From a virus, in the UHGV virus genome UHGV-1838671: a DNA stretch of 10,294 nucleotides; one strand, given 5' to 3'. The position numbers were made by a program, and so were the translations under genes. The notes under the pieces are model-generated. The model made no database searches. It was not told the origin of the DNA and was given only the letters and a program-made list of their open reading frames with translations. Positions 5,389 through 6,237 of the stretch are shown here, piece after piece (the first letter of the stretch is position 1; the number at the start of each line of letters is the position of its first letter).

Positions 5389-5405
5389 GTTACCGTTGAG
5401 GTAAT
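5389..5405. promoter_or_regulatory. Operator-like palindrome gTTACC-N5-GGTAAT (OL-proximal site)
   Basis: 11 of 12 arm positions match ATTACC-N5-GGTAAT. Overlaps the -10/+1 region of the proposed leftward promoter. Confidence 0.4.
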
Positions 5406-5432
5406 GATTATGCGTATTTGGTTTGATGTCAA
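5404..5432 (-). promoter_or_regulatory. Candidate pL-like leftward early promoter
   Basis: On the - strand: perfect -35 TTGACA (5432-5427), 17-bp spacer, -10 AATCAT (5409-5404). Predicted start near 5397, about 27 nt before the ATG at 5370. Flanked by two operator palindromes. Confidence 0.3.
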
Positions 5433-5450
5433 TAGATATGAGTTAAAAAA

Positions 5451-5467
5451 ATTACCCATAAGGTAAT
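5451..5467. promoter_or_regulatory. Operator palindrome ATTACC-cataa-GGTAAT (perfect; OL-distal site)
   Basis: Perfect 6-bp inverted arms with a 5-bp spacer, between the cI terminator and the -35 of the leftward promoter. Confidence 0.5.
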
Positions 5468-5475
5468 CTTGATGG

Positions 5476-5502
5476 CAATAAAAAAGCCGCCATGAGGCGG
5501 CT
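5476..5502 (-). terminator. Rho-independent terminator downstream of the cI-like repressor gene
   Basis: - strand RNA: AAGCCGCC-UCAU-GGCGGCUU (8-bp stem, 5483-5502) followed by UUUAUUG, about 22 nt after the cI stop at 5524. The + strand version is followed by ACTTGCT, so it is mainly unidirectional. Confidence 0.6.
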
Positions 5503-5523
5503 TACTTGCTGAAAACTATAGTT

Positions 5524-6108
5524 TTATTGTTTATTTTTTTCGTTCTGGTTGATGACAAATTCAATGTAACTTTCGATCTTTGCTTTCTCGGTTTCGGGTA
5601 ACAATGCGTAGCGCGAGCGGTCATAGTTGATGGTCGCAGGGTCGTGCGGGTGAATCAGTAATTCATAGCCGTGACGCCCGAATGCGGATGCAACATTCTC
5701 CAGGGTGGAAATGGAAACGCTGACTTCATTGTTTAACAGGCGGCTGATTGTCACCTGGGCGACGCCGGATGCGCGGTGAAGTTTTCCTTGTGTTGAAAGG
5801 TCGCGGCTTTCGCTCATCCAGCGTTCCAGGTTGTGAGCCGCCAGCTGACCAATGTCGCTTGGTCCGACAGGCTGAAAACCCTCCTGAGAAAGCGAGCGAT
5901 CGATATCAAGCCAGTTACGTGGTTTATTGGCGGCAGCTTCAATTTTTCGCGCAACCTGGTCGCCGATAACCTTCTTGCCAAGAGCCCAGCGGTTTACCAG
6001 ATTTGCCTGAGTTCCAAGTTTTTCTGCCATCCGCGTCTGAACACCATTGAATTCACGGTCGATCAAGTCGTTGAGATTTTGCCTGCGGACGTCCTGGATA
6101 CTTTTCAT
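5524..6108 (-). CDS. cI-like prophage repressor with two tandem XRE-type HTH domains and no S24 peptidase domain
   Basis: 194-aa ORF transcribed divergently from the Cro-like gene. HTH-like segments at residues about 8-58 (VQTRMAEKLGTQANLVNRWALGKKVIGDQVARKIE) and about 93-150 (ASGVAQVTISRLLNNEVSVSISTLENVASAFG). No Ala-Gly cleavage dipeptide and no GDSM-type Ser/Lys dyad motif visible. Confidence 0.75.
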   Translation of the reverse strand: MKSIQDVRRQNLNDLIDREFNGVQTRMAEKLGTQANLVNRWALGKKVIGDQVARKIEAAANKPRNWLDIDRSLSQEGFQPVGPSDIGQLAAHNLERWMSESRDLSTQGKLHRASGVAQVTISRLLNNEVSVSISTLENVASAFGRHGYELLIHPHDPATINYDRSRYALLPETEKAKIESYIEFVINQNEKNKQ

Positions 6109-6131
6109 TTTCTGGAAAATCGTCTCATATA

Positions 6132-6150
6132 TGAATCAGTAGATGATTCA
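6132..6150. promoter_or_regulatory. Second, distinct palindrome TGAATCA-N5-TGATTCA, 24-42 bp upstream of the cI-like start
   Basis: Perfect 7-bp inverted arms with a 5-bp spacer (gtaga). Unrelated in sequence to the ATTACC-N5-GGTAAT motif. Occurs once in the window as a full palindrome. Confidence 0.4.
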
Positions 6151-6162
6151 ATTTAAAGCAAT

Positions 6163-6179
6163 ATTACCCAACAGGTAAA
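6163..6179. promoter_or_regulatory. Operator palindrome ATTACC-caaca-GGTAAa (OR site, cI-proximal)
   Basis: 11 of 12 arm positions match. An additional GGTAA half-site at 6191-6195 forms the everted pair GGTAAC (6191-6196) / GTTACC (6211-6216). Confidence 0.5.
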
Positions 6180-6208
6180 TGCACCTCATAGGTAACTATC
6201 CTTGATTT

Positions 6209-6237
6209 TTGTTACCTTATGGGTGAATATTTATTAT
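6209..6237 (+). promoter_or_regulatory. Candidate PR-like rightward promoter for the Cro-like gene
   Basis: -35 TTGTTA (6209-6214), 17-bp spacer, -10 TATTAT (6232-6237). Predicted start near 6244, 18 nt before the ATG at 6263. Overlaps operator site 6211-6227. Confidence 0.35.
6211..6227. promoter_or_regulatory. Operator-like palindrome gTTACC-ttatg-GGTgAa (OR site, cro-proximal, degenerate)
   Basis: 9 of 12 arm positions match; overlaps the -35 and spacer of the PR-like promoter. Confidence 0.4.

What the first reader, a model, noticed from the sequence alone, without database searches (positions are those of the whole stretch)
5389..6227. Recurrent 17-bp palindrome ATTACC-N5-GGTAAT defines the operators of the immunity switch
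Four copies (5389-5405, 5451-5467, 6163-6179, 6211-6227; two perfect or near-perfect) flank or overlap the candidate pL-like promoter and PR-like promoter. The motif occurs only in intergenic DNA in this window. A perfect 12-position palindrome repeated this way is far beyond chance and is the likely binding site of the cI-like and/or Cro-like protein.
Basis: seen in the sequence. Interest (0 to 1): 0.6.

Follow-up and report, generated by a model that had tools for sequence, protein, structure and literature searches.

The report
Known Rep operators of ε15-like prophage
The repeated 17-bp palindrome is very probably the binding site of this ε15/φV10-type prophage's lysogeny repressor, and public records already annotate the same motif as the repressor site in phage ε15, so the finding is correct but ordinary.

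Summary
ATTACC-N5-GGTAAT occurs 7 times at ≤2 mismatches (0.28 expected), and all 7 copies are intergenic. Its fourth copy (6211-6227) has 3 mismatches but is conserved in eight taxa.

The window is the early region of a φV10/ε15-like (Uetakevirus) prophage of E. coli. ε15's GenBank record annotates seven "repressor/lysogeny" binding sites, all with this exact motif.

The 194-aa protein at 5524-6108(-) is a full-length homolog of the SPC32H repressor Rep (PDB 5D50). Rep is a tetrameric repressor that does not cleave itself. A LexA-controlled antirepressor, Ant, inactivates it. A matching prophage carries both the Ant homolog and a LexA box.

The motif is not confined to the immunity switch. 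It precedes nearly every operon of the phage (14-18 sites per genome, about 1 expected) and is absent from flanking host DNA.

Site pairs 62 bp apart always enclose a promoter in the same register. The TTACC/GGTAA cores never vary, whereas the N5 spacers do.

Verdict: interpretation supported with corrections, already known, low interest. No binding was tested here, and the primary papers could not be read.

The parts
5389..5405 (.). OL proximal operator (GTTACCGTTGAGGTAAT, 1 mismatch). It overlaps the last 2 nt of the PL -10 hexamer and the predicted transcription start.
   Evidence: half-sites invariant in 6 genera
5451..5467 (.). OL distal operator (ATTACCCATAAGGTAAT, perfect). It lies 18 nt upstream of the PL -35 and 62 bp centre-to-centre from the proximal site.
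5404..5432 (-). PL-like sigma70 promoter for the leftward recombination operon: -35 TTGACA 5432-5427, 17-nt spacer, -10 AATCAT 5409-5404. It sits between the two OL operators.
   Evidence: 10 of 12 match; -35 invariant in alignment A2; same register in all 62-bp cassettes. Predicted, not mapped.
5484..5503 (-). Intrinsic terminator after the repressor gene. It insulates rep from PL.
   Evidence: conserved; annotated in phiV10
5524..6108 (-). Repressor Rep, 194 aa. It has an N-terminal DNA-binding domain, a middle HTH-fold dimerisation domain and a C-terminal tetramerisation/Ant-binding domain.
   Evidence: PDB 5D50_A E=4e-42 over residues 1-190; 42% identical to epsilon15 gp38; Pfam HTH_3 and no peptidase domain; overexpression of the identical ZX5 ORF21 blocks lytic genes (PMC9782041)
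6163..6179 (.). OR site C (ATTACCCAACAGGTAAA, 1 mismatch). Its rep-proximal half-site doubles as the -35 (TTTACC) of the candidate rep promoter.
6180..6196 (.). OR site B (TGCACCTCATAGGTAAC).
   Evidence: core ACC-N5-GGT invariant in 8 taxa; 0-1 mismatch in epsilon15 and SPC32H
6211..6227 (.). OR site A (GTTACCTTATGGGTGAA, 3 mismatches). It lies inside the -35/spacer of the PR-like promoter, 31 bp from site B.
6209..6237 (+). PR-like promoter candidate for the cro-like operon (TTGTTA, 17 nt, TATTAT).
   Evidence: 9 of 12 match; the region does not exceed its shuffles, so this is a weak prediction
6151..6179 (-). Candidate rep maintenance promoter (-35 TTTACC 6179-6174, 17 nt, -10 TTAAAT 6156-6151).
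   Evidence: read from sequence; a -10-like hexamer at this distance in all 8 aligned taxa. Inference only.
6263..6493 (+). Cro-like 76-aa protein and possible second user of the operators.
   Evidence: phrog_35 'transcriptional repressor' E=5.6e-13; orthologs 55-77% identical in all Rep loci
6548..6564 (.). Single operator (CGTACCTCAAAGGTAAT, 2 mismatches) just after the cro terminator (6515-6534) and upstream of a TTGATC-17-CAAAAT promoter-like site.
   Evidence: equivalent sites in L084, L086, L087, epsilon15, SPC32H and Tyrion
8494..8572 (+). Second 62-bp operator-promoter-operator cassette: operator 8494-8510 (perfect), -35 TTGATT 8529-8534, -10 TTTAAT 8552-8557, operator 8556-8572 (1 mismatch). 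It lies 3 nt before the DUF1064 gene at 8575.
   Evidence: same cassette in phiV10, epsilon15, SPC32H, Tyrion and L084-L088
135..151 (.). Possible weak operator before int (ATTACCTTAAAGGTATA, 2 mismatches), inside the attachment-site region. Its status is uncertain.
   Evidence: conserved in epsilon15, SPC32H and Tyrion but not annotated as a repressor site in epsilon15, where an integrase-binding feature abuts it

Best explanation
The palindromes are the operators of Rep, the lysogeny repressor encoded at 5524-6108(-). Rep belongs to the SPC32H/epsilon15 type. It has an N-terminal HTH domain that reads the TTACC half-site, a middle dimerisation domain and a C-terminal tetramerisation domain.

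In a lysogen, Rep occupies about 15 dispersed operators and shuts off each phage transcription unit directly.

- At PL (5389/5451) and at the promoter before gene 8575 (8494/8556), two operators 62 bp apart (about six helical turns) enclose the promoter. One lies 18 nt upstream of the -35. The other overlaps the -10 end and the transcription start.
- At OR, three sites (6163, 6180, 6211) lie between the divergent rep and cro-like genes. Site A sits inside the PR-like promoter. Site C sits over the -35 of the candidate rep promoter, which would give autoregulation.

Induction does not go through repressor cleavage. DNA damage removes LexA from the ant promoter, and Ant then binds the Rep C-terminal domains and releases Rep from DNA.

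Basis for each step:
- Shown here: motif statistics, distribution, conservation, cassette geometry, and homology of Rep, Ant and the LexA box.
- From published work on SPC32H and ZX5: tetramer formation, Ant action and repression of lytic genes.
- Inferred: that this Rep contacts these particular sites, the promoter positions, and bridging of the 62-bp pairs by one tetramer.
For: 1. The motif is highly enriched and intergenic. The window has 7 sites against 0.28 expected, and 7 of 7 are intergenic (P = 1.9e-7). Complete phiV10 has 15 sites and epsilon15 has 18, against about 1.05 expected. Intergenic DNA is only 6.5% of each genome.

2. In a matching prophage (100% identical over window 5200-6600), 12 sites at <=1 mismatch lie in the 40-kb prophage and none in 60 kb of flanking chromosome.

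3. The epsilon15 GenBank record annotates 7 'repressor / lysogeny' binding sites, and all are ATTACC-N5-GGTAAT.

4. The window's repressor matches SPC32H Rep (PDB 5D50_A) at E = 4e-42 over its full length. The recognition-helix region N36-L37-x-x-R40-W41 is invariant across 16 homologs down to 42% identity. The tetramer-interface aromatic residues are kept: Y181 and F184 correspond to SPC32H F187 and F190.

5. SPC32H carries the motif at the same loci.

6. Loci from six other genera with Rep 52-75% identical keep the sites and the spacing. Half-sites are invariant while N5 spacers and flanks vary. Among 78 loci with identical Rep, 2 of 48 half-site columns vary against 65 of 270 elsewhere (P = 5e-4).

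7. All fifteen 62-bp pairs contain a -35/-10 in one fixed register.

8. A matching prophage has an Ant homolog (5D50_E, E = 4e-47) with a LexA box, CTGTATAAATATACAG, whose near edge lies 6 nt upstream of the ant start codon.

9. Overexpressing the identical repressor of phage ZX5 cuts lysin and holin transcripts by more than 99.9% (PMC9782041).
Against: No binding experiment exists for the phiV10-type Rep. The three primary papers that should hold the experimental operator evidence could not be read (Kropinski 2007 Virology; Kim & Ryu 2013 J Virol; Kim et al. 2016 PNAS). The epsilon15 annotation may therefore rest partly on prediction.

The Cro-like protein is more conserved than Rep (76% against 42% identity to epsilon15) and co-occurs with the motif everywhere. 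Comparative data therefore cannot assign the sites to Rep alone.

The best OR site by consensus (C) overlaps the candidate rep promoter. That is the opposite of the lambda affinity order and leaves the maintenance logic unclear.

Promoter calls are consensus matches only. In 5300-6700 they do not exceed shuffles.
Confidence: 0.87

Rival explanations
1. The palindrome is primarily the binding site of the 76-aa Cro-like protein (6263-6493), acting as a lytic-phase global regulator, and not the site of Rep.
For: The Cro-like protein matches phrog_35 'transcriptional repressor'. Its orthologs are present in every locus that has the motif and are better conserved than Rep, which fits an unchanging DNA target.
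Against: A lysogeny repressor must silence all lytic operons, and the dispersed sites before terS, head, tail-fibre and lysis genes fit that role. epsilon15 annotates the sites as repressor sites. The Rep recognition helix is itself invariant. Shared use by Rep and Cro, as in lambda, is more likely than exclusive use by Cro.
Confidence: 0.06
2. The motif is the site of a host transcription factor or of another phage regulator, such as the PerC-like or gp49-like activator, and marks phage promoters for activation.
For: The sites sit at promoters throughout the genome. PerC-family (2281-2580) and AlpA-family (2690-2938) regulators are encoded nearby.
Against: There are no sites at <=1 mismatch in 60 kb of host DNA. 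The motif tracks Rep-bearing phages across genera and is absent from the Rep-less relative BcepC6B. The proximal operator overlaps the -10 and transcription start, which is a repressing position. The three-site cluster between rep and cro is classic operator anatomy.
Confidence: 0.03
3. The palindromes are module-boundary or recombination sequences, or RNA hairpins such as processing sites or terminators, and not protein operators.
For: They lie at operon junctions, often just after terminators. Flanks and N5 spacers are unusually polymorphic, as expected at mosaic joints.
Against: A 6-bp stem rich in A/T with a 5-nt loop is a weak hairpin. Conservation is in the half-site sequence itself, without compensatory change. 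The sites occur on both sides of promoters and in non-transcribed positions. The fixed 62-bp register with -35/-10 elements points to DNA-level recognition.
Confidence: 0.02

Closest known systems
Repressor (Rep/gp38) operators of Salmonella phages epsilon15 and SPC32H (genus Uetakevirus)
   Same: The 17-bp consensus ATTACC-N5-GGTAAT is identical. The positions are the same: OL, three sites at OR, after cro, a 62-bp pair before the DUF1064/RuvC operon, and before terS, head, ant/tail-spike, lysis and int. The accompanying Rep, Ant and LexA box are the same.
   Different: The Rep here is only about 42% identical overall and 54% in the N-terminal domain. OL has two sites here against three in epsilon15 and SPC32H. 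Sites B and A at OR are more degenerate. The phiV10 record itself carries no operator annotation.
Lambda cI/Cro with the tripartite OL and OR operators
   Same: Both have 17-bp, roughly palindromic operators, three of them between divergent repressor and cro genes. Both have operators at a leftward promoter for recombination genes and probably autoregulate.
   Different: Rep has no S24 autocleavage domain and is a tetramer inactivated by an antirepressor. The operators are dispersed over the whole genome instead of sitting at two loci. OL is a promoter-sandwiching pair 62 bp apart, not three adjacent sites. By consensus match, the strongest OR site lies on the rep side.
Phage P1 C1 repressor with its many dispersed operators and its antirepressor circuit (from general knowledge, not tested here)
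   Same: One repressor directly controls many operons through more than ten operators scattered around the genome, and an antirepressor antagonises immunity.
   Different: The P1 operator is an asymmetric 17-bp sequence and C1 is unrelated in sequence. P1 antirepressor control uses the c4 antisense RNA, not LexA.
LexA-controlled antirepressor induction in Gifsy and Fels-2 prophages and coliphage 186 Tum (PMC3121763 listed; otherwise general knowledge)
   Same: The repressor is not cleaved. The SOS signal enters through a LexA box on the antirepressor promoter.
   Different: The repressor and antirepressor families are unrelated, and the operator sequences differ.

Membership tests
Uetakevirus (epsilon15/SPC32H-type) Rep operator | 17-bp palindrome ATTACC-N5-GGTAAT with an A/T-rich spacer centre | tested here: met
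   Window sites have 0-2 mismatches. The position matrix from 48 sites shows TTACC/GGTAA invariant and the centre position A/T in 88 of 96. The motif is identical to the annotated epsilon15 sites.
Uetakevirus (epsilon15/SPC32H-type) Rep operator | Clusters on both sides of the rep gene (OL and OR), plus dispersed copies at other operon starts | tested here: met
   Window 5389/5451, 6163/6180/6211, 6548 and 8494/8556. The whole-prophage distribution matches epsilon15 and SPC32H.
Uetakevirus (epsilon15/SPC32H-type) Rep operator | Bound by Rep in vitro or in vivo, with operator mutations giving virulence | not testable with these tools
   This needs EMSA, footprinting, ChIP or vir-mutant mapping. 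The primary papers are not held.
SPC32H-type Rep repressor | Full-length three-domain architecture (DNA-binding domain, middle dimerisation domain, C-terminal tetramerisation/Ant-binding domain) | tested here: met
   Residues 1-190 align to 5D50_A residues 2-197 at E = 4e-42. Domain names are from PMC9986798.
SPC32H-type Rep repressor | No RecA-dependent autocleavage module | tested here: met
   Pfam finds only HTH families and no Peptidase_S24. Absence of cleavage itself was not assayed.
SPC32H-type Rep repressor | Hydrophobic tetramer interface (SPC32H Phe187 and Phe190) | tested here: met
   The equivalent residues are Y181 and F184. F184 is invariant in 16 homologs. The oligomeric state was not measured.
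SPC32H-type Rep repressor | Cognate small antirepressor Ant under a LexA box in the same phage | tested here: met
   These lie outside the window, in a matching prophage of E. coli 85.0412 (100% identical over window 5200-6600). The 85-aa protein at L091:11441-11698(-) matches 5D50_E at E = 4e-47. The LexA box CTGTATAAATATACAG is at L091:11720-11735.
Lambda cI-type (LexA-like, S24) repressor | C-terminal S24 peptidase/autocleavage domain with an Ala-Gly site and Ser-Lys dyad | tested here: not met
   There is no S24 hit in Pfam. The C-terminal half aligns to the Rep middle and tetramerisation domains instead.

The most novel reading that the evidence does not exclude
Two features may not yet be described.

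1. A single operator specificity (TTACC half-site) appears frozen across the whole genus, from E. coli, Salmonella, Klebsiella, Enterobacter and Kluyvera to a Pseudomonas-labelled contig, even though Rep diverges to about 42% identity. This would be because about 15 dispersed operators would all have to change together. It predicts cross-immunity between phages of different hosts, unlike the many immunity types of lambdoid phages.

2. The invariant 62-bp operator-promoter-operator cassette suggests that one Rep tetramer clamps both flanks of a promoter, through a six-turn micro-loop or wrap.

A 2023 structural paper says the repression mechanism of this Rep 'has not been extensively characterized'. 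I could not read the primary papers, so either point may already be published.
Probability: 0.3. Interest if true: 0.35.

Novelty: already known. Interest (0 to 1): 0.18.

Why it matters
It matters little as a discovery. The motif and its role are already in the public annotation of the type phage ε15, and the repressor/antirepressor pair has solved structures from SPC32H.

It is useful for annotation. About 10% of complete E. coli genomes (562 of 5,426) carry this immunity region, and their records, like φV10's, list the repressor only as a 'helix-turn-helix protein' with no operators.

The conserved 62-bp promoter-sandwich cassette and the unchanged operator specificity across genera are testable leads. 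They bear on how a tetrameric repressor silences a promoter, and on whether these prophages exclude each other across host species.

Tried and rejected
- **Primary papers.** I tried to read Kropinski et al. 2007 (PMC2698709, PMID 17825342), Kim & Ryu 2013 (PMC3807360) and Kim et al. 2016 (PMC4983836). None is held. My recollection that the ε15 paper gives the consensus ATTACCWDWWNGGTAAT and maps vir mutants to it is therefore unverified. A full-text search for that string found nothing.
- **Motif literature search.** A full-text search for ATTACC + GGTAAT + operator gave only irrelevant hits. A Uetakevirus/operator search gave nothing specific.
- **First locus fetch.** It returned 80 loci with an identical repressor, which are useless for covariation. 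I later reused them for the polymorphism test.
- **First polymorphism comparison.** It was ungapped and was spoiled by indels on the OL side. I redid it with MAFFT.
- **Natural swap test.** I looked for a Uetakevirus with a different repressor. All enterobacterial relatives found by capsid similarity carry Rep. Only the distant, 65% GC BcepC6B lacks it, and it has no sites. That is a weak control because of its base composition.
- **Host-factor hypothesis.** Rejected, because the flanking chromosome has no sites at ≤1 mismatch.
- **Alternative PL promoter.** I considered a promoter with the distal operator as its spacer, copying my first reading of 8494. I rejected it because no −35/−10 fits, and the cassette register puts the promoter between the sites in all 15 cases.
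- **One script** timed out and was rewritten.
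Full report
**1. The observation**

| Coordinates | Sequence | Mismatches (of 12 specified positions) |
|---|---|---|
| 5389-5405 | GTTACCGTTGAGGTAAT | 1 |
| 5451-5467 | ATTACCCATAAGGTAAT | 0 |
| 6163-6179 | ATTACCCAACAGGTAAA | 1 |
| 6211-6227 | GTTACCTTATGGGTGAA | 3 |

At ≤2 mismatches the window holds 7 matches against 0.28 expected, and none of 200 dinucleotide shuffles reached 7. The three extra loci are 135-151, 6548-6564, and the pair 8494-8510 / 8556-8572.

All 7 copies fall in the 10.9% of the window that is intergenic (binomial P = 1.9e-7). A further degenerate copy, 6180-6196 (TGCACCTCATAGGTAAC), abuts 6163-6179. It is recognisable only by comparison with relatives.

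**2. What the window is**

The window is 97-98% identical over about 70% of its length to Escherichia phage φV10 and its relatives. The 5200-6600 segment occurs in 562 of 5,426 complete E. coli genomes.

In E. coli 85.0412, whose prophage is 100% identical to window 5200-6600, the prophage sits at the 3' end of guaA and spans about 40 kb.

The gene order in the window is:
- int
- a leftward operon: MT-A70 methylase, PerC-like, AlpA-like, RecT, RecE-like and two small ORFs
- OL and a terminator
- the 194-aa repressor (5524-6108, minus strand)
- OR
- a cro-like 76-aa gene, a terminator and a 66-aa ORF
- DnaT-like and λ P-like replication genes
- a DUF1064 gene and the genes after it

**3. The motif is already annotated as the repressor site in the type phage**

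The RefSeq record of Salmonella phage ε15 carries seven 'protein_bind – repressor – lysogeny' features. Reading them out, every one is ATTACC-N5-GGTAAT.

The φV10 record has no such features. The one accessible experimental paper on a φV10-type phage (ZX5, PMC9782041) shows that overexpressing the identical repressor cuts lysin and holin transcripts by more than 99.9%. It maps no operator.

**4. The repressor**

The 194-aa protein aligns over residues 1-190 with the repressor of Salmonella phage SPC32H (PDB 5D50 chain A, E = 4e-42). It is 42% identical to ε15 gp38. Pfam finds HTH families only and no S24 peptidase domain.

Secondary sources describe SPC32H Rep as follows (PMC9638917; PMC9986798):
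- It has an N-terminal DNA-binding domain, a middle dimerisation domain and a C-terminal tetramerisation domain.
- It binds palindromic sites as a tetramer. Each DNA-binding pair draws its two domains from different dimers.
- The pairs of middle domains at the two ends of the tetramer are about 100 Å apart, measured between their far ends.
- The tetrameric antirepressor Ant disassembles it.

In a 16-sequence alignment reaching down to 42% identity, the probable recognition-helix region (N36, L37, R40, W41) is invariant. The residues equivalent to the SPC32H tetramer-interface Phe187 and Phe190 are Y181 and the invariant F184.

**5. The rest of the circuit lies outside the window**

In the prophage of strain 85.0412, an 85-aa protein matches SPC32H Ant (5D50 chain E, E = 4e-47). 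A perfect LexA box, CTGTATAAATATACAG (11720-11735), lies just upstream of its start codon; the box's near edge is 6 nt from the ATG at 11698-11696. SPC32H has the same arrangement.

Induction is therefore expected to run LexA → Ant → Rep, not through repressor cleavage.

**6.

| Genome | Sites at ≤2 mismatches | Expected | Placement |
|---|---|---|---|
| φV10 (complete) | 15 | about 1.05 | 11 of 15 intergenic, plus 2 in a probably over-extended terS 5' end |
| ε15 (complete) | 18 | about 1.05 | 16 of 18 intergenic |

Intergenic DNA is only 6.5% of each genome.

In 100 kb around the 85.0412 prophage, 12 sites at ≤1 mismatch lie inside the 40-kb prophage and none in the 60 kb of host DNA. The four host matches at 2 mismatches are all in coding DNA, at roughly chance level.

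The sites precede terS, the head operon, the moron/BRO-N region, ant/tail fibre and int. They also form OL, OR, the post-cro site and the pair before the DUF1064 operon. In φV10, ε15, SPC32H and Tyrion a further site precedes the lysis cassette. The motif is therefore a distributed operator that controls essentially every transcription unit.

**7. Comparative evidence**

Six loci from other genera carry the motif on both sides of rep with the same spacing. They are Superficieibacter, Ca. Erwinia dacicola, Pseudocitrobacter, Pseudescherichia, Kluyvera and a contig labelled Pseudomonas lundensis, with Rep 52-75% identical. Klebsiella phage BUCT711, Enterobacter phage Tyrion and SPC32H carry it too.

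Alignments of OL and OR show TTACC/GGTAA invariant while the N5 spacers and flanks change. They also reveal three conserved sites at OR.

Among 78 loci with an identical Rep, 2 of 48 half-site columns are polymorphic against 65 of 270 other columns (Fisher P = 5e-4). The N5 spacers are among the most variable positions.

BcepC6B shares the capsid module but has a cI-like repressor and no Rep. It has no sites, although its 65% GC makes this a weak control.

**8. Architecture**

Of 30 neighbour distances under 150 bp, 15 are exactly 62 bp, 5 are 18 bp and 3 are 48 bp.

All fifteen 62-bp pairs share one layout:
- operator (17 nt)
- 18 nt
- −35 (TTGAxx, preceded by CTA)
- 17 nt
- a −10 hexamer whose last two bases are the first two bases of the proximal operator

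In the window these cassettes are:
- PL, on the minus strand: −35 at 5432-5427 and −10 at 5409-5404, between the operators at 5451 and 5389. This is the best promoter match in the region.
- The promoter before gene 8575: −35 at 8529-8534 and −10 at 8552-8557.

At OR, site A (6211-6227) lies within the PR-like promoter. Sites B and C abut each other. The half-site of C nearest rep is a TTTACC that sits 17 nt from a conserved TTAAAT-like hexamer, which makes it a candidate rep promoter.

These promoter assignments are predictions. Sixty-two bp is about six helical turns, so the paired sites face the same side of the DNA. That one tetramer bridges them is my inference.

**9. Rep or Cro?**

The Cro-like protein matches a PHROG annotated as a transcriptional repressor. 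Its orthologs, at 55-77% identity, accompany the motif everywhere. Shared use of the sites by both proteins, as in λ, cannot be excluded. Exclusive use by Cro is unlikely given the dispersed sites in front of late operons and the ε15 annotation.

**10. Verdict**

The motif, the repressor family and the antirepressor circuit are all already in public records for ε15 and SPC32H. I therefore rate this as already known and of low interest.

The fixed 62-bp cassette and the apparently frozen operator specificity across genera are the only aspects that may go beyond what is published. I could not check that, because the primary papers are not held.

Noticed in passing
L090:39158-39240 (E. coli 85.0412 prophage; equivalent to phiV10 41-120), outside the window: The annotated terS start is probably about 26 codons too early. 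A terminator-like hairpin (about 39167-39190) and two abutting Rep operators (39203-39219 and 39221-39237) lie inside the annotated 5' end, directly before ATGATG. In epsilon15, SPC32H and Tyrion, terS starts just after the equivalent pair.
   Followed up: partly
window 6227-6250: A perfect 9-bp inverted repeat, ATATTTATT-N6-AATAAATAT, overlaps the PR-like -10 and the predicted start of the cro transcript. It is largely conserved in the enterobacterial loci but not in epsilon15. It could be a site for another regulator or a 5'-leader hairpin.
   Followed up: partly
window 6132-6150: A 7-bp inverted repeat, TGAATCA-N5-TGATTCA, lies between the rep start codon and OR site C and is partly conserved among relatives. 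epsilon15 annotates an IHF site at the equivalent place.
   Followed up: no
L004-L083, OL and OR regions (window 5451-5467, 6180-6196 and neighbours): Among prophages that encode an identical Rep, the N5 operator spacers and the DNA just outside OL are unusually polymorphic (55 haplotypes in 160 bp), while the half-sites stay fixed. This may reflect affinity tuning or frequent recombination at this junction.
   Followed up: partly
L091:8761-11418 (same prophage, outside the window): A moron-like block lies between the tail genes and ant. It encodes a YafO-family toxin, a BRO-N domain protein and a 242-aa ORF. Three good Rep operators (L091 9520, 10561, 10654) accompany it, so the accessory genes may also be under Rep control.
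   Followed up: no
window 2988-4919 versus phiV10 (L001:3488-5248): The window has separate RecT (340 aa) and RecE/YqaJ-like (299 aa) genes, as in epsilon15. The phiV10 record annotates a single fused 'recET' gene. This mosaic difference accounts for part of the roughly 30% of the window not covered by phiV10.
   Followed up: no
window 7150-7260 (within the DnaT-like gene 6860-7675): The replication protein contains a short tandem peptide repeat (GNEPEN GNEPEN ... KNGMLNDP KNGMLNDP). It is a low-complexity linker between the HTH_36 and DnaT domains.
   Followed up: no
L089 (contig JAWQUI010000010.1, labelled Pseudomonas lundensis): A complete Rep/Cro locus of enterobacterial type, with the same operators, lies on a 183-kb contig of a Pseudomonas assembly. 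This is either a real host jump of this phage group or a mislabelled or contaminated assembly.
   Followed up: no
window 5376-5381: An extra GTTACC half-site lies 13 bp from the proximal OL operator. On the transcript strand it reads GAGGTAAC and overlaps the Shine-Dalgarno sequence of the first PL gene. It is conserved, probably as the ribosome-binding site.
   Followed up: no
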